In this document: one piece after another, positions 3,957-58,419 of the stretch | Position numbering within the stretch: the stretch's first letter is position 1 | How the letters are laid out: every line of letters starts with the position of its first letter | DNA from: Octopus vulgaris | Lineage: Eukaryota | Direction of reading: 5' to 3' | DNA length: 64,000 nucleotides | Assembly (NCBI GenBank): GCA_951406725.2 | Contig: OX597835.1 | Span: forward strand, 33,356,001-33,420,000 | Translations under genes and position numbers: made by a program | Notes under the pieces: model-generated | The model's database searches: none | What the model was told of the DNA's origin: nothing | Seen by the model: only the letters and a program-made list of their open reading frames with translations

Positions 3957-4957
3957 GGAGTGTATCAAAATATATATGGGTAGAAGGAAAAATAATAAAG
4001 TATATCAAAGCTGATAAAAATATAGAACGTATCGAAGTGCATTGTAAAATTATGTATATTATTGTTAAAAAATAATGTACGCACCGAATAAAGGAAGACC
4101 ATGGTAAAATGACCGAAATTTATCAAAAGTTAGTCCAAAAATTGACAAAGCTAGAGAAACCTAAGAATTACTGGGAAGAAAGGAAGTTCAGATGGCAGCT
4201 ATAAGAAATTGCAAATTAAAGCTTATATTGTATAAAATGTGTTATGTATTTGATCGGCTAATTGAAGTATACTAGTTAGTATAAATGAGAATACGCAGAA
4301 CAATCTGAGGAGAGTGTCATATGCGCAGTCATAGCGCAGAGGTCGTAGGAATTATTAAATAGAGATATCGTGGAGTGTTTATTGAAGATACAGAGTTGGA
4401 GAGAAATAAGAGAACATCAGGAACGTTTAATATTATAACAATTCGACGTTGAGAGGTCGTACATCATATCAGTATGTGTATTTGTATGTATGTTTATTGT
4501 TCTAGTTTTCTTTAAGTTCTTCTTGTGAGAGTTCAAGTCGGTCGCTAACAAAACGACAAGACATTTTGACTTAAGAGAGTTCTCGATATTCGTAAATATG
4601 TAACTGACTCAGTAACTTGGTCGAGCTGTGTATGTATCCACCCAAGTGGATACATACACCAAAGTGGATGCATACACCAAAGTGTATGCATTTATTCACC
4701 TAAAAATCTCAGATGGATAATGTTTAGAATGTCTTACAGATCCTCACTGCATCAATGTTACTTTGCTCTTTCTTCGTAAAACCTAGCATTGCTACATTTT
4801 AGGGCAATTTTCTGGTACATAACCTAAGGCACTTCTGATGATACATACAAATGAAAATTCATAGTCAAGCTACAAAACTCGTAAGTTCCGCATTTATTCA
4901 CCATATTCTCATTTTTCCCGTCATATCTGTTTCAAATGACTGAAACGAGTAAAAGAG

Positions 4958-26614: not shown

Positions 26615-28600
26615 GTTCTACAATAGGTACACGGTCTGAAACTTTGAGGGAGGCGGTAAGTAGATCATATCGACCCCAGTACTTGACTGGTACTTAATTT
26701 ATCGACCCCAAAAAGATGAAAAGTAAAGTCGACCTCAGCGGAATGTAACGGCAGACGAAATACCGCTAAGCATTTTGCCCGGCTTGCTAATAATTCTGCC
26801 AGCTCACTGCTTATGGATAATATTAATAAAATTTTCCACTCTAGGTACAAGGCCTGAAATTTTGGGGGAAGGGAGCAGTCGATTAGAGCGACCCCAGTAC
26901 GCAACTGGTACTTAAATTATCGACACTGAAATTGAACTCAGAACGTAAATACTGCTAAGCATTTCGCCCGGCGTGCTAACGATTCTGCCAGCTCAACGCC
27001 TTGCATAATATAATTATTTTTTTATTGCTCACAGGGAGCAAAACTTAGAGAGAACAAATAAGGACAGACAATGGGATTAATTCGATTACATCGACCACAG
27101 TGCGTAACTGGTACTTAAGTAATCGACCTCGAACGGATGAAAAGCAAAGTCGACCTTGGCGGAATTTAAATTCAAAATGTAAATACTTCTAAGCATTTCG
27201 CACGTCGTGTTAGTGTTTCTGCCGCCTTGCATAATAGAAAGAATGATAACGGTTTGTCGTTTACTGTTTCGCTTTGTTTCGTTAATTTATTTTATTTGTG
27301 TTTGTCGGGGAGTCTCTGTAGGTCGAGTGGCTAGATCTTCGCATTAAAAAGTCACAGCACTGGTACCACAGGTATCTAATTAGAAGGTCGCAGCAAAGAA
27401 TCGCAAAACAGTTTCTTCAAGCCGATCCAAACGGCAGGAAATTGGGGGTAGACTAAGAAAGAGATTGTTGGGTAACATCCCTGTTCTCAATTTGGCCACG
27501 CTCAGGAATTTTGTAGGATTGTGTGATAATTGTTGCTTCTGATAGGATGCTATAGCAAAGGGGCCGGAGGTCTCTACACGCAAGCCTCAAAGTTGATATT
27601 TGCTTATAATTTAAGCATGGAGACAACAGTTTGAAAGAGAGAGCGTTAGTCGATGCCTACGATCCTAAACTTTGACTGATACCTCATGTTATCAATTGTG
27701 GAAGGAAAGAAGGCAACGATATCCTCGGAGATATTCGAACCCAGAATATAAAGTGGCAAAACGAATACCACAAGGCACTTTGGTTGACGCTCTAACGAGT
27801 GAGTCAGTTCATCACCCTTGTAATAATGATTTCAAATTTTGGTACGAGACCAGCAATTCTGAATAGGGGAGGCACTCAATCGATTACATCGAACCCAGTA
27901 CGATTCCGAAAGGCTGCAAGACAAAGTTGAATTCGGCGGTATTTCAACTCAGAGCATGAAGATCAACGAAATGCCGCTCAGCAGTTTGCCCGGCGTGCTA
28001 AGGTTTCTTATTTCTTTATTGCCCACAAGGGGTTAAACAAAGAGGGGACAAACAAGGACAGACAACGGATTAAGTCGATTATATCGACCCCAGTGTGTAA
28101 CTTGTACTTAATTTATCGACCCCGAAAGGATGAAAGGCAAAGTAGACCTCGGCGGAATTTGAACTCAGAACCTAATGGCAGACGAAATACCTATTTTTAT
28201 TTCTTTATTGTCCACAAGGGGCTAAAGACAGAGGGGACAAACAAGAACAGATAAACGGCTTAAGCCGATTACATCGACCCCAGTGCGTAACTGGTACTTA
28301 ATTTATCGACCCCGAAGGATGCAAGGCAAAGTCGACCTCCGCGGAATTTGAACTCAGGACGTAATGGCAGACGAAACACCACTAAGCACTTCGCCCGGCG
28401 TGCTAACGTTTCTGCCAACTCTCTGTCAGAGGCCATTACTTTTGTGATGATAATTATTTCTAATTTAGGTACAAAACTAATAATGGTAAAGAGGAGTGGT
28501 TGGAGTTAGTCGATATCACTGAATCCGCTACTTGACTGGTACTTTATCGACTGCAAAGAAGGCGAAAAGTAAAGTTAATATCAGCTGGATTGCATCTTTG
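26615..28600 (-). mobile_element. Cluster of ~7 co-oriented SINE family A copies and fragments
   Basis: Repeated tatcgaccccgaaaggatgaaaggcaaagtcgacctcggcggaatttgaactcagaac blocks at ~26700, 26920, 27120, 27900, 28110, 28300 and 28540. Confidence 0.85.
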
Positions 28601-31159: not shown

Positions 31160-32275
31160 TGTCAACAGTTTTGATTTTATAATATCACCACATTTACTAG
31201 TGTAGATATTGGCCAATTCCGTAATGTCTTGATTTATACGCCACTGGTGCTAAAACATTGCAACCAGAGATTAGGTAGTTCACTGTTTCAATCTCATCCT
31301 TACAGATCCGACACTTTGGCCCTACTTCATTTCCTATCACATTGGCTTGGTTGTTCCGGGTCTATAAGCTTTGACCTTGAGCAAGTAAACTGAAACATTC
31401 GATCTCTGCTTTTATGCCCGAGCTCCGTAGCCACTGGTGGGTTTGCTTCTAATCAACACCAGCTTGTTTGCTACAGGCCATATATTTGCCATGCAGAGGT
31501 TTCTGCCCCCACCGATCAGAAAATTGTTCATGCGTTTTTTCCCTTGTTACCTTCTTTGCAACAACACCTTCTTTGCTGCACATCATGCTGTTCAATCTGG
31601 GTACCACACACGAACTCATTATCAAACGTTTCACTCTCCTTCGCGAGCTTCTTAAGCCTCTCGTCTTTTTGAACGAGTTTTAGCATCCAATCGTTAGATG
31701 TTTCAAGATATTTGGTCTGTCCAGTTGTGGGGATTTTGTAAGAGAGTTCAAATTGTATCAAGCTTCGAACTCCTTGTGCTCTGGAAAGGTAAAGACAATC
31801 GACGTCTAACTTTGGGTGTTGTATATTTTTACAAGTCAGCGGTTTACGTGTTTTTCTGTCAACTTTCCTTATTTCACTGATACTCCAATTCAACACTTTG
31901 AAGCTATAGAATGGAACTGCTATGAAATTTATGGCTAACACCTTGTTATGTGCATTTAGTTAAAATTTCAAGACTGCTCAAACTCACCTATAACATTGCT
32001 TTACGATCTCTTTCAAATTTGCTTAATGAATGCCAGATCTTTCATTTATCTTCGGTACTTATGATTGTTCTTGTTCAAGTTCTTTTACAATTGTGCGAAC
32101 ACCTAACACCGCTACATTTGATGTCTTCGCATTTCTGCAAAGTGGTCTTGGCACATTTATCAAGAGCAAACTTCGTACCGATGTAATCACTCAATGTTTT
32201 TATAGTACCTAAGAGGTCTTTAAGTGCATTATTCTCTTTGCCATAGAGTTTTATAGCAATCCATATAATATAGAT
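31160..32275 (-). pseudogene. Decayed R4/Dong-like RLE non-LTR retrotransposon (end of RT, thumb, CCHC zinc knuckle)
   Basis: AINFIAVP..YSF..LNWSISEIRKVDRKTRK.L....HPK.DVD.LYL.R..G.R.LIQ; W.QKPLHGKY; AQGQSL*TRN...CRICKDEIETVNYLISGC..LA...Y..RH; stops and frameshifts. Confidence 0.8.
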
Positions 32276-32361
32276 TGCTTATTTACTTGTCAATTTTATA
32301 TCCACACCCTGTTCTGAAACGTTCACTCGTAAGGGGATTTAGAGCTGCAAAAACATTAAAT

Positions 32362-32362
32362 G

Positions 32363-32435
<73 letters not shown>

Positions 32436-32552
32436 TATTATTATTATTATTATTATTACTATTATTATTATTATTATTATTACTATTATTATTGTTATTA
32501 TTATTATTATCATTATTATTATTATTATTATTACTATTAATATTATTATTAC

Positions 32553-32600
<48 letters not shown>

Positions 32601-32635
32601 TATTATTATTACTATTATTATAATTATTATTAATA

Positions 32636-32672
<37 letters not shown>

Positions 32673-32700
32673 CATCATCATCATCATTATTATTATCGAT
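32362..32700. repeat. (TTA)n microsatellite (mirrored at 40221-40560)
   Basis: Read directly. Confidence 0.95.
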
Positions 32701-32931
32701 CATCATTGCCATCATTACTTTATAGATAACATATAACCTTGAGGATATTTTTCAGGAAATAATTTTAAAGGATTATTTTCATTAAACTCTCACACCTATC
32801 CAAATTCTTTCTTTCTTGAAACCAGGAAATCATTCTTTATTATTGTCTCTCGAAGCAAGATAATTAATAATAACTAATTATCCTATTATTCACCTTTATT
32901 TGCCTTACCACACACACACAAATCTATATAC

Positions 32932-33009
<78 letters not shown>

Positions 33010-33059
33010 GTGTGTGTATGTATGCATGTGTGTCTACATATATATGTATGTATATATGC

Positions 33060-33178
<119 letters not shown>

Positions 33179-34029
33179 ATGTAAATATCATCGTCTCGGA
33201 ACGTTTATCTTTGATATTTCACTATTTATTCTCTCTTTTATTTTTTTCTAATCTTCATATATGTCATTTATATTAGTTCATATTTCCATATTCATTGTTT
33301 CATTCTTCGTATTACTACTACTACTACCGATATTGCTGCTGCTGCTGCAATTATTACACCTCCTCTTCCCCCTCTTACTACTACTACAATGACATTCACA
33401 CTTACTACCATCGCTACTCCTACCACGAACACCACCAACACTACTCTCACTACTACTATGTATTCGTGCTTCTCTTTAAATTTTATGTACGATTTTCTTT
33501 CTTCTGAATTTCTTATTAATATTCTCCTGAACATCGCAGCAGCAGACCCATATATCGAAAAGACAGAAGACGCTAAAGAAAGGAAAGCAACAACACACAG
33601 ACATGCGCAGAGAACACACGCAGACACACTCATACAGACACATGTGTCTTAGATTAAGCCGACAGGATGAGAGAACAAAGATGATGTACAGTCAACATTT
33701 TGTATCTCTCATAATTATTGTCATTTCTACTTATATCATCCCAGTATTTCTTGTACGATCCCAGTAAGATAAGAAGTGCACAAAGGCAAGACTACAAAGA
33801 TAAATCAGTCAAGCTAAAAAAACAACTGAAGTGAACAAGCTAACAGCTAACGAGAGCGTCTCCATATCAGTGGTTTTCAAACCAGGTATATACGGCCTTT
33901 GGGACCAATGTATGATGTTGATGTTAACAATTATATACAACAAAGTGGTCATATTTTTAAAATATTCAAAAGTATCTAAACAATTCTTAATAATATTTAA
34001 TTAAAAAAATATGATAAAATAGGTCTAGT

Positions 34030-34195
34030 AGTGGCTGTGTGGTAAGTAGATTGTTTACCAACCACATGGTTCCCGGTTCAGTCCCACTGCGTAGCACCTT
34101 GGGCAAGTGTCTTCTACTATAGCCTCGGGCCGACCAAAGCCTTGTGAGTGCATTTGGCAGACGGAAACTGAAAGAAGACCGTCGTATATATGCAC

Positions 34196-34254
<59 letters not shown>

Positions 34255-34472
34255 TGTGTGTATATGTGTGTATGCGTGTGTGTTTGTGTTTGTCCCCCCA
34301 ACATCGCTTGACTACCGATGCTGGCGTGTTTACGTCCCCGTAACTTAGCGGTTCGGCAAAAGAGTCCGATAGAATAAGTACTAGGCTTACAAAGAGTAGG
34401 TCCTGCGGTCAATTTGCTCGACTAAAGGCGGTGCCCCAGCATGACCACAGACAAATGACTGAAACAAGTAAA
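34030..34472 (+). mobile_element. SINE family B, complete (mirror copy at ~38444-38886 on -)
   Basis: Head, internal (TA)(TG) tract and tail all present. Confidence 0.9.
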
Positions 34473-34767
34473 TTAGTATAGAGAGAGTAATAGTTTTTTG
34501 ACATCGAATGGATGTGAGCAAATAGACATAAAAGACACGGAAATAAAAGGGGAACAGAAATTGTGTGAGATCCACATACGGTCGTTGTCCCTGCTCAAAA
34601 CAGCAAACAAGTAAACCTGAAATAACAGAATATCCTTATAAAATGTGCACTTTGCGTAGTGGAACACCTTGGGAAGCTGTTTGAACACAAAGCGATGATA
34701 CCTGTAAGAGTGCTCTTGATTATAAGATTTCCTGATGAAACTGAGACTACACAACAACAGCAACAGT

Positions 34768-34960
34768 GGAGGCGCAATGGCCCAGTGATTAGGGCAGGAG
34801 ACTGGCAGTCGTAAGAACGCGGTTCGATTCCCAGACCGGGCATAGTGAGTGTTTATTGAGCAAAAAACACCTAAGCTCCACGATGCTCCGGCGGGGTAGT
34901 GGTGGTGAACCCCGCTGTATTCTTTCACCACAACTTTCTCTCACTCTTTCTTCCTACTTC
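34768..34960 (+). mobile_element. SINE family C head (mirror ~37956-38148), followed by a third type of downstream sequence
   Basis: ggaggcgcaatggcccagtgattagggcagg...ggttcgattcccagaccggg. Confidence 0.85.
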
Positions 34961-35536
34961 TGCCACAAAGCAGAGGAACCATGGTGTAACCCACTATGGT
35001 GTGGTAAAATTTTCAGACCCTAGTCTAGATTGCGAATCCTCTGTACCCCAGGATGGTTCAGCTCTCCACTCGTTAAAAGCCACCGTTTACGGAATGAGGA
35101 TAACAACGTAGCTTTCGCGCCCGTGCAACCGCCAGTCTATCGCGTGTGGTGGGTGGATCTTCAAGTTGCCAGACGCATTCTTAGTGGCTTAGAGTAGGCT
35201 CGAATTAGAGATTATTCTTCGTGGCTAATGGCGTGAGTCCTGATTGGAAGAAGAAGAAGAAGAAGAAGAAGAAGAAGAAGAAGAAGAAGAAGAAGAAGAA
35301 GAAAGAAGAAGAAAAAGAAGAAGAATAGAAGGAGAAGTAGTAGAAGAAGAAGAAGAAGAAGAAGAAGAAGAAGAAGAAGAAGAAGAAGAAGAAGAACAAC
35401 AACAACAACAACAACAACAACAGCAACAAACATCACCTGGGCATTCAAGGAACGGAGAATTTTGCTGTATCACCCTATCATATATTCTGGTGGGATGTAT
35501 GCATTGTGTCTGGTACAAAGATGGCGGTATGTTGAA

Positions 35537-35772
35537 AGGCGGCGAGCTGGCAGAATTGTTAGCACGCCGGGTGAAATGCGTAGCCGTATTTCGTCTGCCG
35601 TTACGTTCTGAGTTCAAATTCCGCCGTGGTTGACTTTGCTTTTCATCCTTTCGGGGTCGATTAAATAAGTACCAGTTACGCACTGGGGTCAATATAATCG
35701 ACTTGATCCGTTTGTCTGTCCTTGTTTGTCCTCTCTGTGTTTAGCCCCTTGTAGGAAGTAAAGAAATAGGTA
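35537..35772 (+). mobile_element. SINE family A, full-length (mirror ~37148-37385)
   Basis: ggcggcgagctggcagaattgttagcacgccgg...ccccttgtaggaagtaaagaaata. Confidence 0.9.
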
Positions 35773-36245
35773 TGTTGAAAGATATGCAACGACAGAGCAG
35801 CAGGGAAACGTCTCCTTTTGTTGCAAGACTCAAAGGAAATATCAGCATAGGTGCGGGTGTGGCTGTGTTGTAAGAAATTTCGTTGCCAACGTGACGGTCC
35901 CATGTTCAAGTCAAAATGCGTGTCACTTTGGGCAAGTATATTTTACTATAGCATTGTTATGGAATTCGGTAGATGGAAACTGTAAGAAACCCGTCTTATA
36001 TATATATATATATATAATAGAAATATTAAAATAACTAAGTCTCTCTAAAAGAGAACAGCGGCAGCGTTCCCGGAAAATAATAGTTATCGCCATACTAATA
36101 TGGCATTCTTATAAAAATAAGAAAAAAGCTGTCCGCTTATTAGCTCCATGAGGCCATCGCCTTAAGTTAGCTATTTGATACACAAACTGTATCCATATAA
36201 CCTTCGAACAAGGGAGGTCAGTCGCTCCACACTACTTGACCGGCA

Positions 36246-36287
36246 GCTACAGACGCGTTTCGGGGTATTGCCCCTTTTCAATGCAGC
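36246..36287 (-). ncRNA. Minimal type-I hammerhead ribozyme, U3-A8 core variant
   Basis: Minus strand gctgca-TTGAAAA-gggg(caata)cccc-GAAAC-gc-GTC-tgtagc: 6-bp stem I, 4-bp stem II, palindromic ACGCGT stem III, GUC cleavage triplet. Confidence 0.8.
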
Positions 36288-36607
36288 GTAGCCAGCCAGT
36301 AGGTGTCGCTTCCGACAATCTCTGTTCGATGGTTTTATTTACCTAGTTTCGGTGGAATACATCCACTTGTTTTCAATAATAGAAATATTAAAATAACTAA
36401 GTCTCTCTAAAAGAGAACAGCGGCAGCGTTCCCGGAAAATAATAGTTATCGCCATACTAATATGGCATTCTTATAAAAATAAGAAAAAAGCTGTCCGCTT
36501 ATTAGCTCCATGAGGCCATCGCCTTAAGTTAGCTATTTGATACACAAACTGTATCCATATAACCTTCGAACAAGGGAGGTCAGTCGCTCCACACTACTTG
36601 ACCGGCA

Positions 36608-36649
36608 GCTACAGACGCGTTTCGGGGTATTGCCCCTTTTCAATGCAGC
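36608..36649 (-). ncRNA. Second identical minimal type-I hammerhead ribozyme (362 nt from the first)
   Basis: Same sequence as 36246-36287. Confidence 0.8.
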
Positions 36650-36891
36650 GTAGCCAGCCAGTAGCTGCCGGTCAAGTAGTGTGGAGCGACTGACCTCCCT
36701 TGTTCGAAGGTTATATGGATACAGTTTGTGTATCAAATAGCTAACTTAGGGCGATGGCCTCATGGAGCTAATAAGCGGACAGCTTTTTTCTTATTTTTAT
36801 AAGAATGCCATATTAGTATGGCGATAACTATTATTTTCCGGGAACGCTGCCGCTGTTCTCTTTTAGAGAGACTTAGTTATTTTAATATTTC

Positions 36892-36926
<35 letters not shown>

Positions 36927-38669
36927 ACGGGTTTCTTACAGTTTCCATCTACCGAATTCCATAACAATGCTATAGTAAAATATACTTGCCCAAAGTGACA
37001 CGCATTTTGACTTGAACATGGGACCGTCACGTTGGCAACGAAATTTCTTACAACACAGCCACACCCGCACCTATGCTGATATTTCCTTTGAGTCTTGCAA
37101 CAAAAGGAGACGTTTCCCTGCTGCTCTGTCGTTGCATATCTTTCAACATACCTATTTCTTTACTTCCTACAAGGGGCTAAACACAGAGAGGACAAACAAG
37201 GATAAACAAACGGATCAAGTCGATTATATGGACCCCAGTGCGTAACTGGTACTTATTTAATCGACCCCGAAAGGATGAAAAGCAAAGTCAACCACGGCGG
37301 AATTTGAACTCAGAACGTAACGGCAGACGAAATACGGCTACGCATTTCACCCGGCGTGCTAACAATTCTGCCAGCTCGCCGCCTTTCAACATACCGCCAT
37401 CTTTGTACCAGACACAATGCATACATCCCACCAGAATATATGATAGGGTGATACAGCAAAATTCTCCGTTCCTTGAATGCCCAGGTGATGTTTGTTGCTG
37501 TTGTTGTTGTTGTTGTTGTTGTTGTTCTTCTTCTTCTTCTTCTTCTTCTTCTTCTTCTTCTTCTTCTTCTTCTTCTTCTACTACTTCTCCTCCACTTCTC
37601 CTTCTTTTTCTTCCTCTTCTCCTTCTTCTTCTTCTTCTTCTTCTTCTTCTTCTTCTTCTTTTCTTCTTCCAATCAGGACTCACGCCATTAGCCACGAAGA
37701 ATAATCTCTAATTCGAGCCTACTCTAAGCCACTAAGAATGCGTCTGGCAACTTGAAGATCCACCCACCACACGCGATAGACTGGCGGTTGCACGGGCGCG
37801 AAAGCTACGTTGTTATCCTCATTCCGTAAACGGTGGCTTTTAACGAGTGGAGAGCTGAACCATCCTGGGGTACAGAGGATTCGCAATCTAGACTAGGGTC
37901 TGAAAATTTTACCACACCATAGTGGGTTACACCATGGTTCCTCTGCTTTGTGGCAGAAGTAGGAAGAAAGAGTGAGAGAAAGTTGTGGTGAAAGAATACA
38001 GCGGGGTTCACCACCACTACCCCGCCGGAGCATCGTGGAGCTTAGGTGTTTTTTGCTCAATAAACACTCACTATGCCCGGTCTGGGAATCGAACCGCGTT
38101 CTTACGACTGCCAGTCTCCTGCCCTAATCACTGGGCCATTGCGCCTCCACTGTTGCTGTTGTTGTGTAGTCTCAGTTTCATCAGGAAATCTTATAATCAA
38201 GAGCACTCTTACAGGTATCATCGCTTTGTGTTCAAACAGCTTCCCAAGGTGTTCCACTACGCAAAGTGCACATTTTATAAGGATATTCTGTTATTTCAGG
38301 TTTACTTGTTTGCTGTTTTGAGCAGGGACAACGACCGTATGTGGATCTCACACAATTTCTGTTCCCCTTTTATTTCCGTGTCTTTTATGTCTATTTGCTC
38401 ACATCCATTCGATGTCAAAAAACTATTACTCTCTCTATACTAATTTACTTGTTTCAGTCATTTGTCTGTGGCCATGCTGGGGCACCGCCTTTAGTCGAGC
38501 AAATCGACCGCAGGACTTACTCTTTGTAAGCCTAGTACTTATTCTATCGGACTCTTTTGCCGAACCGCTAAGTTACGGGGACGTAAACACGCCAGCATCG
38601 GTAGTCAAGCGATGTTGGGGGGGCAAACACAGACACACACGCATACACACACACACACACACACACACA

Positions 38670-38720
<51 letters not shown>

Positions 38721-39737
38721 GTGCATATATACGACGGTCTTCTTTCAGTTTCCGTCTGCCAAATGCACTCACAAGGCTTTGGTCGGCCCGAGGCTATAGT
38801 AGAAGACACTTGCCCAAGGTGCTACGCAGTGGGACTGAACCGGGAACCATGTGGTTGGTAAACAATCTACTTACCACACAGCCACTACTAGACCTATTTT
38901 ATCATATTTTTTTAATTAAATATTATTAAGAATTGTTTAGATACTTTTGAATATTTTAAAAATATGACCACTTTGTTGTATATAATTGTTAACATCAACA
39001 TCATACATTGGTCCCAAAGGCCGTATATACCTGGTTTGAAAACCACTGATATGGAGACGCTCTCGTTAGCTGTTAGCTTGTTCACTTCAGTTGTTTTTTT
39101 AGCTTGACTGATTTATCTTTGTAGTCTTGCCTTTGTGCACTTCTTATCTTACTGGGATCGTACAAGAAATACTGGGATGATATAAGTAGAAATGACAATA
39201 ATTATGAGAGATACAAAATGTTGACTGTACATCATCTTTGTTCTCTCATCCTGTCGGCTTAATCTAAGACACATGTGTCTGTATGAGTGTGTCTGCGTGT
39301 GTTCTCTGCGCATGTCTGTGTGTTGTTGCTTTCCTTTCTTTAGCGTCTTCTGTCTTTTCGATATATGGGTCTGCTGCTGCGATGTTCAGGAGAATATTAA
39401 TAAGAAATTCAGAAGAAAGAAAATCGTACATAAAATTTAAAGAGAAGCACGAATACATAGTAGTAGTGAGAGTAGTGTTGGTGGTGTTCGTGGTAGGAGT
39501 AGCGATGGTAGTAAGTGTGAATGTCATTGTAGTAGTAGTAAGAGGGGGAAGAGGAGGTGTAATAATTGCAGCAGCAGCAGCAATATCGGTAGTAGTAGTA
39601 GTAATACGAAGAATGAAACAATGAATATGGAAATATGAACTAATATAAATGACATATATGAAGATTAGAAAAAAATAAAAGAGAGAATAAATAGTGAAAT
39701 ATCAAAGATAAACGTTCCGAGACGATGATATTTACAT

Positions 39738-39863
<126 letters not shown>

Positions 39864-39901
39864 GCATATATACATACATATATATGTAGACACACATGCA
39901 T

Positions 39902-39985
<84 letters not shown>

Positions 39986-40244
39986 GTATATAGATTTGTG
40001 TGTGTGTGGTAAGGCAAATAAAGGTGAATAATAGGATAATTAGTTATTATTAATTATCTTGCTTCGAGAGACAATAATAAAGAATGATTTCCTGGTTTCA
40101 AGAAAGAAAGAATTTGGATAGGTGTGAGAGTTTAATGAAAATAATCCTTTAAAATTATTTCCTGAAAAATATCCTCAAGGTTATATGTTATCTATAAAGT
40201 AATGATGGCAATGATGATCGATAATAATAATGATGATGATGATG

Positions 40245-40281
<37 letters not shown>

Positions 40282-40316
40282 TATTAATAATAATTATAAT
40301 AATAGTAATAATAATA

Positions 40317-40364
<48 letters not shown>

Positions 40365-40454
40365 GTAATAATAATATTAATAGTAATAATAATAATAATA
40401 ATAATGATAATAATAATAATAACAATAATAATAGTAATAATAATAATAATAATA

Positions 40455-40560
<106 letters not shown>

Positions 40561-41304
40561 CATTTAATGTTTTTGCAGCTCTAAATCCCCTTACGAGTGA
40601 ACGTTTCAGAACAGGGTGTGGATATAAAATTGACAAGTAAATAAGCAATCTATATTATATGGATTGCTATAAAACTCTATGGCAAAGAGAATAATGCACT
40701 TAAAGACCTCTTAGGTACTATAAAAACATTGAGTGATTACATCGGTACGAAGTTTGCTCTTGATAAATGTGCCAAGACCACTTTGCAGAAATGCGAAGAC
40801 ATCAAATGTAGCGGTGTTAGGTGTTCGCACAATTGTAAAAGAACTTGAACAAGAACAATCATAAGTACCGAAGATAAATGAAAGATCTGGCATTCATTAA
40901 GCAAATTTGAAAGAGATCGTAAAGCAATGTTATAGGTGAGTTTGAGCAGTCTTGAAATTTTAACTAAATGCACATAACAAGGTGTTAGCCATAAATTTCA
41001 TAGCAGTTCCATTCTATAGCTTCAAAGTGTTGAATTGGAGTATCAGTGAAATAAGGAAAGTTGACAGAAAAACACGTTAACCGCTGACTTGTAAAAATAT
41101 ACTACACCCAAAGTTAGACGTCGATTGTCTTTACCTTTCCAGAGCACAAGGAGTTCGAAGCTTGATACAATTTGAACTCTCTTACAAAATCCCCACAACT
41201 GGACAGACCAAATATCTTGAAACATCTAACGATTGGATGCTAAAACTCGTTCAAAAAGACGAGAGGCTTAAGAAGCTCGCGAAGGAGAGTGAAACGTTTG
41301 CATT

Positions 41305-42310
<1,006 letters not shown>

Positions 42311-52579: not shown

Positions 52580-52679
52580 NNNNNNNNNNNNNNNNNNNNN
52601 NNNNNNNNNNNNNNNNNNNNNNNNNNNNNNNNNNNNNNNNNNNNNNNNNNNNNNNNNNNNNNNNNNNNNNNNNNNNNNN
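52580..52679. other. Assembly gap (100 N)
   Basis: Run of n. Confidence 1.
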
Positions 52680-57618: not shown

Positions 57619-57712
<94 letters not shown>

Positions 57713-57744
57713 TAGCGAGAAAGAAGCAACAAGAATGGATAGGT

Positions 57745-57835
57745 TTTTAGTACAATCGTTTCATACAAGGACAGGCTTTATTAAAAGTTGCAAAAATTAC
57801 AGCATATAAACGTGTCCTGTACTCATCAGCTAAAA
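57745..57835 (-). ncRNA. Type-I hammerhead ribozyme with extended stem II
   Basis: Reverse complement of 58021-58111. Confidence 0.8.
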
Positions 57836-58020
57836 TACATGTGAGTTCTCTAGACATCCTATTGGTTGAGGCTATACTCATGAAGTAGATAATTAAGTAA
57901 CATAAACAGATTTCCAAAGTTCATTAAAGTTCTTTAAAGATGATGTACAGTCTTATCACAGAATTTTAAAAATTTTGAGTATAGCCTCAACCAATAGGAT
58001 GTCTAGAGAACTCACATGTA

Positions 58021-58111
58021 TTTTAGCTGATGAGTACAGGACACGTTTATATGCTGTAATTTTTGCAACTTTTAATAAAGCCTGTCCTTGTATGAAACGA
58101 TTGTACTAAAA
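58021..58111 (+). ncRNA. Type-I hammerhead ribozyme with extended stem II
   Basis: ttttag-CTGATGA-gtacaggaca...tgtcc(t)tgtat-GAAAC-gatt-GTA-ctaaaa: canonical core, 6-bp stem I, GUA triplet. Confidence 0.85.
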
Positions 58112-58419
58112 ACCTATCCATTCTTGTTGTTTCTTTCTCGCTTATAATCACCCCACATTATTGTATTGTTAAAACAGTATAGTTTTTTTGGTGCATCTAA
58201 GTTAGGTACCATATTCAAGTAAATTCATTTAAATTAACTTGAATCTTTATTGCTTTTTGTATATATTTATATATATATTTATATATATATTAAATTAGAG
58301 ATAAAACCACTTTTAGGCAAATCAAGCAATGAAAAACATAAACCAAAATATAGAAATAAAATTAATTAAAGATTTAAATTATTTAAATTTATATATATAT
58401 ATATATATTTATATGCGCC

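What the first reader, a model, noticed from the sequence alone, without database searches (positions are those of the whole stretch)
36014..36664. Tandem 362-nt monomer bounded by twin U3-A8 hammerhead ribozymes: candidate cephalopod retrozyme / circular-RNA unit
Seen: two identical minus-strand motifs gctgca-UUGAAAA-gggg(caaua)cccc-GAAAC-gc-GUC-uguagc exactly 362 nt apart. The core departs from CUGANGA only at positions 3 and 8. Known: C3-G8 is a tertiary Watson-Crick pair and U3-A8 is a compensatory variant. Minimal type-I hammerheads with a palindromic stem III (here ACGCGU) are typical of Penelope-like pLTRs and non-LTR retrozymes and are thought to cleave as dimers. Inference: a read-through transcript would pair the two motifs and release a non-coding 362-nt monomer that could circularise and be mobilised by a Penelope RT in trans. 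A plain CUGANGA search would miss it.
Basis: partly seen in the sequence, partly recalled or inferred. Interest (0 to 1): 0.85.

Follow-up and report, generated by a model that had tools for sequence, protein, structure and literature searches.

The report
Hammerhead retrozyme hijacking Neptune retrotransposon machinery
A 362-base non-coding repeat with a variant hammerhead ribozyme motif, present about a thousand times in this animal genome, was likely copied from a self-cut, probably circular RNA by a co-resident Penelope-type retrotransposon, and its insertions nearly always show one long and one short end, which suggests how that enzyme primes both DNA strands.

Summary
In detail: two identical U3-A8 type I hammerhead motifs lie 362 nt apart on the minus strand. 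The unit is one copy of a young dispersed family (1,091 exact hammerhead matches, 0 in the control). It is non-coding and folds strongly (z about -7), and older subfamilies 80-96% alike keep the hammerhead through compensatory changes. Copies are 5'-truncated tandem arrays in (TA)n, often head-to-head. Of 61 such insertions with both ends classifiable, 60 have one 3' end near unit position 175 and one near 238; the exception is this window. An intact Neptune-like element in the genome shares the TA target, the one-long-one-short rule (4 of 4) and a U3-A8 core, but not clear sequence. Units within an array share alleles (54 of 58), pointing to one template, likely a circle. Cleavage, expression and circles are untested. 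The retrozyme class and the U3-A8 core are published; this family and its insertion signature were not found in my searches. The window copy sits at the tip of a 4.6-kb inverted host duplication that four runs did not confirm.

The parts
36252..36613 (-). Full 362-nt unit, from one predicted cleavage site to the next (unit positions 1-362); 41.7% G+C, longest ATG ORF 38 codons in a concatemer
36608..36649 (-). Upstream type I hammerhead motif, U3-A8 core, predicted cut between 36614 and 36613
36246..36287 (-). Downstream identical type I hammerhead motif, predicted cut between 36252 and 36251
36014..36251 (-). 3'-terminal partial unit (positions 1-238); ends at the 'long' 3' end and merges into (TA)n at 35997-36016
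36614..36664 (-). 5'-truncated unit (positions about 312-362); its first four bases are the microhomology at the inversion junction
36661..36897 (+). Inverted copy of unit positions 2-238, ending in (TA)n at 36895-36924; unusual in also ending at the long site
36439..36445 (-). 'Short' 3'-end site (unit 169-175, CTATTAT), where about half of insertion ends map; inferred RT start site 1
36376..36382 (-). 'Long' 3'-end site (unit 232-238, CTATTAT); inferred RT start site 2; the same 7-mer precedes the long end of the Neptune-like element
36340..36392 (-). Most conserved block across subfamilies, two hairpins around and after the long site; hammerhead-looking in this subfamily only; possible protein-binding site (inferred)
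31623..41300 (.). Inverted duplication of about 4.6 kb of host DNA with the insertion at its tip (arms 31623-36250 and 36661-41300, 98.8% alike); real or assembly artefact unresolved

Best explanation
This is one insertion of a young, non-coding, 362-nt tandem repeat family with a U3-A8 hammerhead motif in each unit, likely a retrozyme whose transcripts are predicted to self-cleave to monomers, likely close into circles, and are likely copied into (TA)n sites by the RT-endonuclease of a co-resident Neptune-like element. Shown: unit, copy number, covariation, TA targets, 5' truncation, head-to-head arms, two fixed 3' ends used one per arm, and allele sharing within arrays. Inferred step 1: multimeric transcripts pair two palindromic helix III sequences and cut after GUC. 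Inferred step 2: a host ligase circularises the monomer. Inferred step 3: a Neptune protein dimer binds the RNA near positions 140-265 and cuts both strands of a (TA)n tract. Inferred step 4: one 3'-OH primes at about position 175 and the other at about 238, each RT running on round the template zero to seven times. Inferred step 5: the two cDNAs join head-to-head at a few bases of microhomology. In this window the second arm looks instead like a fold-back copy of the first.
For: Copies: 1,091 exact hammerhead matches against 0 for the reversed control; 27 rows identical over all 362 nt, the window's own included, among 40 of 1,067 candidates scored. Selection on the fold: across 10 units of 5 subfamilies, 95.2% of cells pair and 6 of 25 pairs change on both sides; slid controls pair 28-46%. 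U3-A8 is invariant, helix III stays palindromic (GC to AT) and position 7 varies A/U/C. The two common helix II variants leave G-U pairs. Monomer z = -7.2 linear, -7.1 circular. PLE signature: 139 of 155 3' ends have (TA)4 within 30 nt (68/73, 71/82). First set: 32 of 33 double-ended arrays are long+short. Second set, 48 arrays taken in list order: 28 of 34 long+short, 6 with one unclassifiable end, none same-class (p about 3e-17 for 60 of 61). Older subfamilies: 17 of 24 long+short, 7 with an unclassifiable end, none long+long or short+short. Helper: an element with a 781-codon RT + CX4CxxC + GIY-YIG frame, 98-100% identical in 15 of the 20 fetched stretches (picked mostly for the intact frame), inserts in (TA)n, carries a U3-A8 core, and has two 3' ends about 40 nt apart, one of each in 4 of 4 inverted copies. 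One template: 54 of 58 multi-unit arrays are uniform for the helix II allele (shuffled mean 24, maximum 33 in 5,000); 6 of 7 two-arm arrays with a minor allele carry it in both arms. 115 of 155 arms read through at least one cleavage site, up to seven. 8 of 154 arm 5' ends fall within unit positions 361-4 against 2.6 expected (p about 0.005, post hoc). Literature: PAc cleaves and extends both strands, starts at two internal sites and is predicted to be a dimer (PMC11167929); mussel retrozymes of 350-390 nt form circles (PMC7229834).
Against: No call shows cleavage, expression or a circle. The unit has no convincing homology to the helper's pLTR: blastn found nothing and a lenient local alignment was matched by 9 of 200 shuffles, so the helper is assigned by behaviour only, and other Neptune-like families exist. 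The young helper's own hammerhead has a weak helix I, and its copies read through the cut site. In PAc the hammerhead is protein-assisted and dispensable in vitro (PMC11167929), and 8 of 9 Xenopus retrozyme dimers did not cleave in vitro (10.64898/2026.07.22.740005). Uniform arrays also fit linear transcripts from a few uniform master arrays; 4 of 58 arrays are mixed. The 5'-end excess at the cut site is modest, and other clusters exist (30 of 155 at 32-54, 10 at 261-265). The covariation sequences are related and few (5 of 10 from one subfamily), so the shuffle counts are not probabilities. The youngest subfamily has A-U rather than C-G at 3-8, whose rate here is unknown.
Confidence: 0.66

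Rival explanations
1. Same family and same Neptune-type helper, but the template is a linear, mostly uncut multimeric transcript from a few long master arrays; the hammerhead cuts rarely or only trims 5' ends, and no circle is needed.
For: Unprocessed RNA was the dominant substrate for PAc in vitro (PMC11167929). Copies of the helper read through its own hammerhead from upstream starts clustered near unit 4273-4290. Arrays of 5-7 units exist (L123, L163, L194). Uniform masters give uniform daughters.
Against: Internal priming plus 5' truncation should shorten arrays each generation, yet five successive subfamilies keep the 360-365 nt unit and multi-unit arrays. I noticed no daughters carrying a parent's inversion junction when reading the 88 block maps (not a formal test). 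The hammerhead is under compensatory selection, and at least three allele lineages are active.
Confidence: 0.22
2. The unit is the pLTR or UTR of an autonomous PLE that I did not recover, and the arrays are its truncated ends rather than an independent retrozyme.
For: Most PLE copies are 5'-truncated, and Xenopus retrozymes resemble pLTRs (10.64898/2026.07.22.740005). Only 150 of 6,136 GIY-YIG candidates were scored.
Against: Upstream of a unit there is another unit, an inverted arm or unrelated flank. tblastn of the helper's two frames hit 5 of 138 family loci. The one examined in detail (L189) and L081/L049 are opposite-strand neighbours with their own 3' UTR; the other three were not examined.
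Confidence: 0.08
3. A satellite or minisatellite amplified at the DNA level, or a SINE moved by a LINE, with a decayed hammerhead as a passenger.
For: Tandem form; no RNA evidence in hand.
Against: Arrays are short, dispersed over at least 18 contigs, near-identical between loci (0.31% substitutions), have fixed 3' ends in (TA)n, ragged 5' ends and the long+short rule. No tRNA was found.
Confidence: 0.04

Closest known systems
Metazoan non-LTR retrozymes (Cervera and de la Pena 2020, PMC7229834), especially the 350-390 bp Mytilus galloprovincialis repeats
   Same: Tandem non-coding units of 150-450 bp, one type I hammerhead per unit, G+C under 50%, strongly self-paired, thousands of dispersed copies, co-existing with PLEs.
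   Different: U3-A8 core. Insertion anatomy (TA target, head-to-head arms, two fixed 3' ends) ties it to PLE machinery; the passages and sections I read only propose PLEs as candidates. Cleavage and circles are shown there and untested here.
Vertebrate non-LTR retrozymes as PLE derivatives (Li, Clavereau, Pollet 2026, 10.64898/2026.07.22.740005)
   Same: Same proposed relation: non-autonomous partner of PLEs.
   Different: That link rests on co-occurrence and pLTR homology in Xenopus, with 31 vertebrates, three insects and one anthozoan sampled. Here there is no clear pLTR homology, and the link rests on insertion ends.
PLE hammerheads, including the U3-A8 variant of Schistosoma mansoni Cercyon elements (Cervera and de la Pena 2014, PMC4209133)
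   Same: Type I topology, palindromic helix III region, U3-A8 covariation, proposed dimeric cleavage and circular template.
   Different: Those are minimal motifs with long helix II, short helix I and an extra base before helix II, mostly single. This one has the canonical 6 bp / 4 bp layout and sits in a tandem non-coding unit.
EN+ PLE insertions with inverted 5' copy and one-sided tail (Craig et al. 2021, PMC8557442), and PAc two-site internal initiation (Frangieh et al. 2024, PMC11167929)
   Same: Partial tandems, inverted 5'-truncated copy, an extension at one end only, AT-rich or (TA)n targets, two start sites.
   Different: The extension is 63 nt rather than 30-40. The element is non-coding. 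The two sites are used one per arm in 60 of 61 insertions, whereas PAc showed no difference in start site between strands in vitro.
Non-autonomous Chlamys elements such as MRC1 (as described in PMC8557442)
   Same: Non-autonomous PLE partners with multicopy head-to-tail insertions.
   Different: Those resemble their helpers at the 3' end, and most Chlamys elements lack canonical hammerheads.

Membership tests
Metazoan non-LTR retrozyme | Tandem units of 150-450 bp, each with a type I hammerhead | tested here: met
   362-nt unit, arrays of up to seven read-throughs
Metazoan non-LTR retrozyme | No protein coding | tested here: met
   Longest ATG ORF 38 codons sense, 21 antisense in a four-unit concatemer
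Metazoan non-LTR retrozyme | G+C under 50% and highly self-paired RNA | tested here: met
   41.7% G+C; z -7.2 linear, -7.1 circular
Metazoan non-LTR retrozyme | Many dispersed genomic copies | tested here: met
   1,091 exact hammerhead matches for this subfamily, control 0
Metazoan non-LTR retrozyme | No PBS or PPT | not tested
   No dedicated search; ARAGORN found no tRNA in 35500-37500
Metazoan non-LTR retrozyme | Target-site duplication longer than 4 bp when present | tested here: inconclusive
   Ends lie in (TA)n, so a duplication cannot be read
Metazoan non-LTR retrozyme | Self-cleavage of the transcript | not testable with these tools
   Indirect only: covariation and a modest 5'-end excess at the site
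Metazoan non-LTR retrozyme | Accumulates as monomeric circular RNA | not testable with these tools
   Only assembled contigs were available, which cannot show a circle
Type I hammerhead ribozyme | Conserved core with a Watson-Crick 3-8 pair, free position 7, GAAA box and NUH triplet | tested here: met
   U3-A8 in 10 of 10; position 7 A, U or C; GUC in 9 of 10, GUU in 1
Type I hammerhead ribozyme | Helices I, II, III supported by compensatory change | tested here: met
   6 of 25 pairs change on both sides; pair 230-272 is unpaired in 5 of 10
Type I hammerhead ribozyme | Match to an Rfam hammerhead model | tested here: not met
   No hammerhead family among 26 matches at E<=10; a library match is not part of the structural definition
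Minimal PLE hammerhead (min-HHR) | Long helix II, short helix I, extra base before helix II | tested here: not met
   Helix I 6 bp, helix II 4 bp, no extra base in this subfamily (definition in PMC4209133)
Element mobilised by EN+ PLE machinery | 5' truncation, partial tandems, inverted 5' copy | tested here: met
   67 of 88 arrays double-ended
Element mobilised by EN+ PLE machinery | Two 3' ends, tail on one side only | tested here: met
   60 of 61 classifiable double-ended arrays long+short; 6 more had an unclassifiable end
Element mobilised by EN+ PLE machinery | Sequence homology to the helper's pLTR | tested here: inconclusive
   No blastn hit; 9 of 200 shuffles reach the local score; shared CTATTAT before the long end and shared U3-A8 core
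Neptune clade (helper candidate, L064) | RT with DKG motif, CX2-5CxxC linker, C-terminal GIY-YIG | tested here: met
   RVT_1 scores 28.9 bits, just under its 29.6 cut-off
Neptune clade (helper candidate, L064) | RT phylogeny with Neptune rather than Nematis | not tested
   No named reference sequences at hand; homologues carry no clade names

The most novel reading that the evidence does not exclude
A dimeric Neptune RT-endonuclease loads asymmetrically on one circular 362-nt ribozyme RNA, primes the two strands of a (TA)n break at two fixed sites 63 nt apart, and rolls round the circle from both. This family would be a large natural read-out of that mechanism, direct genomic evidence that animal retrozymes use PLE machinery, and, if the window's palindrome is real, a case where failed second priming produced a multi-kilobase inverted duplication of host DNA.
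Probability: 0.4. Interest if true: 0.72.

Novelty: new variant of a known kind. Interest (0 to 1): 0.52.

Why it matters
Which autonomous element moves animal retrozymes, whether circles are the real templates, and how PLEs make their inverted copies and one-sided tails are stated as open in PMC7229834, PMC4209133, PMC8557442 and 10.64898/2026.07.22.740005. This family gives a short defined RNA, an intact candidate enzyme, a defined target and two predicted start sites, so all three questions can be tested in one in vitro assay. It also shows that CUGANGA-only screens would miss most hammerheads of this layout here: 4,875 U3-A8 matches (control 487) against 765 C3-G8 matches (control 50), with slightly different triplet patterns. 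No effect on the host is shown.

Tried and rejected
Rfam scan: no hammerhead hit, only microsatellite-driven chance matches. Second hammerhead inside the unit (36376-36340): rejected, because the GAAAC box reads GTAAC, AAAAG or GAAAT in subfamilies B and D and helix I does not form. tRNA-derived SINE: no tRNA. Naiad as helper: not supported; the intact frame found has a C-terminal endonuclease, and PMC8557442 reports only remnants of Naiads in cephalopods. C3-G8 relatives of the unit: 20 of 765 canonical-core loci were examined and only one gave a 24-nt match. Expression: no RNA holder listed; 20 of 24 listed runs hold 94-100% of sampled words, some guessed to be RNA, which is no evidence either way. 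Host duplication: no listed contig bridges 41300/41305 in 4 of 4 runs; three carry the right-arm alleles and continue into other sequence, and the fourth leaves at 41300 and has little cover beyond; contigs show presence, not absence, so this is unresolved. Protein homologue search of the helper gave 780 hits at up to 58% identity, without useful names. Earlier findings of this scan: none in 3 look-ups. Literature searches that did not show this family. The 2026 octopus repeat paper PMC13282606 has no 'ribozyme', 'hammerhead', 'retrozyme' or 'Neptune' in its main text and no 'ribozyme', 'hammerhead' or 'Neptune' in the one supplement held; its repeat library, Repbase and Dfam could not be checked and may hold the unit under another label. 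Rows dropped before counts: four duplicate loci of the same arrays (L003, L016, L028, L029) and L107; four non-family loci (L151, L152, L157, L159); for the 5'-end test the window's fold-back arm was removed and L194 was not counted as ending at the site.

Full report
Observation. The minus strand carries two identical motifs, helix I - UUGAAAA - 4-bp helix II - GAAAC - GC - GUC - helix I, at 36643-36614 and 36281-36252. They are far above chance (0.09 expected) and mark a 362-nt period. The insertion is larger than reported. Read on the minus strand it is: (TA)n, an inverted copy of unit positions 2-238, a 5'-truncated unit (312-362), one full unit, positions 1-238, (TA)n. Rfam does not detect the motif.

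Family. A search of the own genome (2.8 Gb, 227 contigs) gave 1,067 candidates; the 40 scored held 191 matches, 27 of them identical over 362 nt including the window's own. The exact hammerhead occurs 1,091 times, the reversed control never. Copies of the first set differ from the window unit by 0.31% substitutions (that set was chosen for high identity). Older subfamilies, 80-96% alike, have units of 360-365 nt in the same tandem form. The unit is non-coding, 41.7% G+C, and folds far better than shuffles (z -7.2 linear; -7.1 circular).

Ribozyme. In 10 units from five subfamilies the hammerhead fold pairs in 95.2% of cells, with 6 of 25 pairs changed on both sides; slid controls pair 28-46%. 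U3-A8 is invariant, position 7 is A, U or C, and helix III keeps its palindrome while its centre changes from GC to AT. The two common helix II alleles leave G-U pairs. These sequences are related and few, so this is support, not proof. The layout is that of canonical metazoan type I motifs, which need a dimer to form helix III (PMC4209133, parts 1-2 of 4 read). U3-A8 is a known natural covariation active in vitro (PMC3088659, passages) and is found in Schistosoma PLEs (PMC4209133). Genome-wide, U3-A8 motifs of this layout outnumber C3-G8 ones: 4,875 (control 487) against 765 (control 50), with slightly different triplet patterns. A second hammerhead-looking motif in the unit is not conserved as such.

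Insertion anatomy. I examined 88 arrays of the window's subfamily: 40 from the best hits (four duplicate loci dropped) and 48 taken in order from the first 100 rows. Of 155 3' ends, 139 have (TA)4 within 30 nt. The 3' ends fall at two places, unit 172-180 and 229-239, each at a CTATTA motif. Of 67 head-to-head insertions, 60 have one of each, 6 have an unclassifiable end, and 1 has two long ends: the window's own (a second parser gave 31 rather than 32 for the first set). Older subfamilies give 17 long+short of 24, with none long+long or short+short (subfamily B was retrieved with a query ending at the long site). Most junctions between arms show a few shared bases. This is the PLE pattern of an inverted 5' copy with a tail at one end (PMC8557442, passages). 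It matches the two internal start sites and two-strand cutting of the Poseidon protein PAc (PMC11167929, parts 1-2 of 4 read), except that here the sites are strictly paired.

Helper. [quoted passage not shown] It is 98-100% identical in protein in 15 of the 20 stretches fetched, which were picked mostly for the intact frame. It inserts in (TA)n and has a U3-A8 core in its pLTR. Its 3' ends lie about 40 nt apart, with one of each in 4 of 4 inverted copies, the long one just after CTATTAT. Against it: no clear homology to the unit, a weak helix I in its own hammerhead, and other Neptune-like families in the genome. Five of 138 family loci had an RT hit; the two examined are opposite-strand neighbours.

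Template. 115 of 155 arms cross at least one cleavage site, up to seven. 54 of 58 multi-unit arrays are uniform for the helix II allele, against at most 33 in 5,000 shuffles; 6 of 7 two-arm arrays with a minor allele have it in both arms. So an insertion usually comes from one RNA or one source locus, not from jumps among mixed monomers. A circle explains this and explains why arrays do not erode over successive subfamilies (inference). Linear transcripts from long uniform masters remain possible. Eight of 154 5' ends fall at the cut site against 2.6 expected (p about 0.005, post hoc, with other clusters present), a weak hint that some templates were cleaved.

This locus. It alone among 88 arrays has a flanking inverted duplication of host DNA (test limited to 1.5-kb flanks): 4.6 kb, about 8 substitutions outside microsatellites, followed at 41305-42310 by a second palindrome centred on (TA)n, with a 9-nt repeat at the join. 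A fold-back of the first cDNA on a 4-base microhomology would give exactly the long+long ends and the copied flank (inference). No listed contig from four runs bridges the join, so it is private to the assembled individual or an assembly error.

Comparison and verdict. It works like, and meets every testable feature of, a metazoan non-LTR retrozyme (PMC7229834, sections 14 and 17 and passages read; 10.64898/2026.07.22.740005, parts 1-3 of 5 read); cleavage and circles could not be tested. Ten literature searches did not show this family, a U3-A8 retrozyme or the paired-end rule, but repeat libraries and bioRxiv supplements were not visible. Verdict: a new variant of a known kind with an unusually clean mechanistic signature; interest 0.52.

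Noticed in passing
window 31623-41300: 4.6-kb inverted duplication of host DNA with the insertion at its tip; the only such case in 88 arrays; its far junction was not seen in four runs.
   Followed up: partly
window 41305-42310: Second palindrome centred on a (TA)n tract, arms differing at 5 of about 430 bases, abutting the first through a 9-nt tandem repeat; three runs carry the right-arm alleles.
   Followed up: partly
window 57710-58146; also L027 2329-2828, L114 700-1512, L117 4144-4415, L122 1892-2292: Imperfect palindromes of a few hundred bases (81-96% alike) recur in this genome; some may be low-complexity AT-rich sequence.
   Followed up: no
L064 1268-4971 (G000:C6:133342500-133350500): Young Neptune-like element with a separate upstream frame of 479 codons that overlaps the RT frame in another phase and has no convincing Pfam match; many intact copies.
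   Followed up: partly
L061, L064, L068, L069, L074: 5' ends of full-length Neptune-like copies fall 380-440 nt upstream of the pLTR hammerhead, four of five within 17 nt of each other, which suggests an internal start of transcription.
   Followed up: no
L017, L025, L072: Three copies (two retrozyme, one Neptune-like) begin at the palindromic helix III, 7-8 nt before the cleavage site.
   Followed up: no
L127, L130, L132, L140: Another repeated hammerhead family with the canonical C3-G8 core and a 6-bp helix I; no match to this unit beyond one 24-nt hit; possibly a second retrozyme.
   Followed up: no
L151, L152: Identical UUGAGAA...GAAAC-AC-GUC motif repeated on C1 without clear helices; unrelated to the unit.
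   Followed up: no
one search run list: Runs under ten different coded organism labels hold 94-100% of the element's sampled words; whether these are one species, close relatives or mixed samples is unknown.
   Followed up: no
window 52580-52679 and 28008-28380: A 100-N gap, and a two-copy 189-nt tandem of an interspersed repeat that also occurs near 35555-35773.
   Followed up: no
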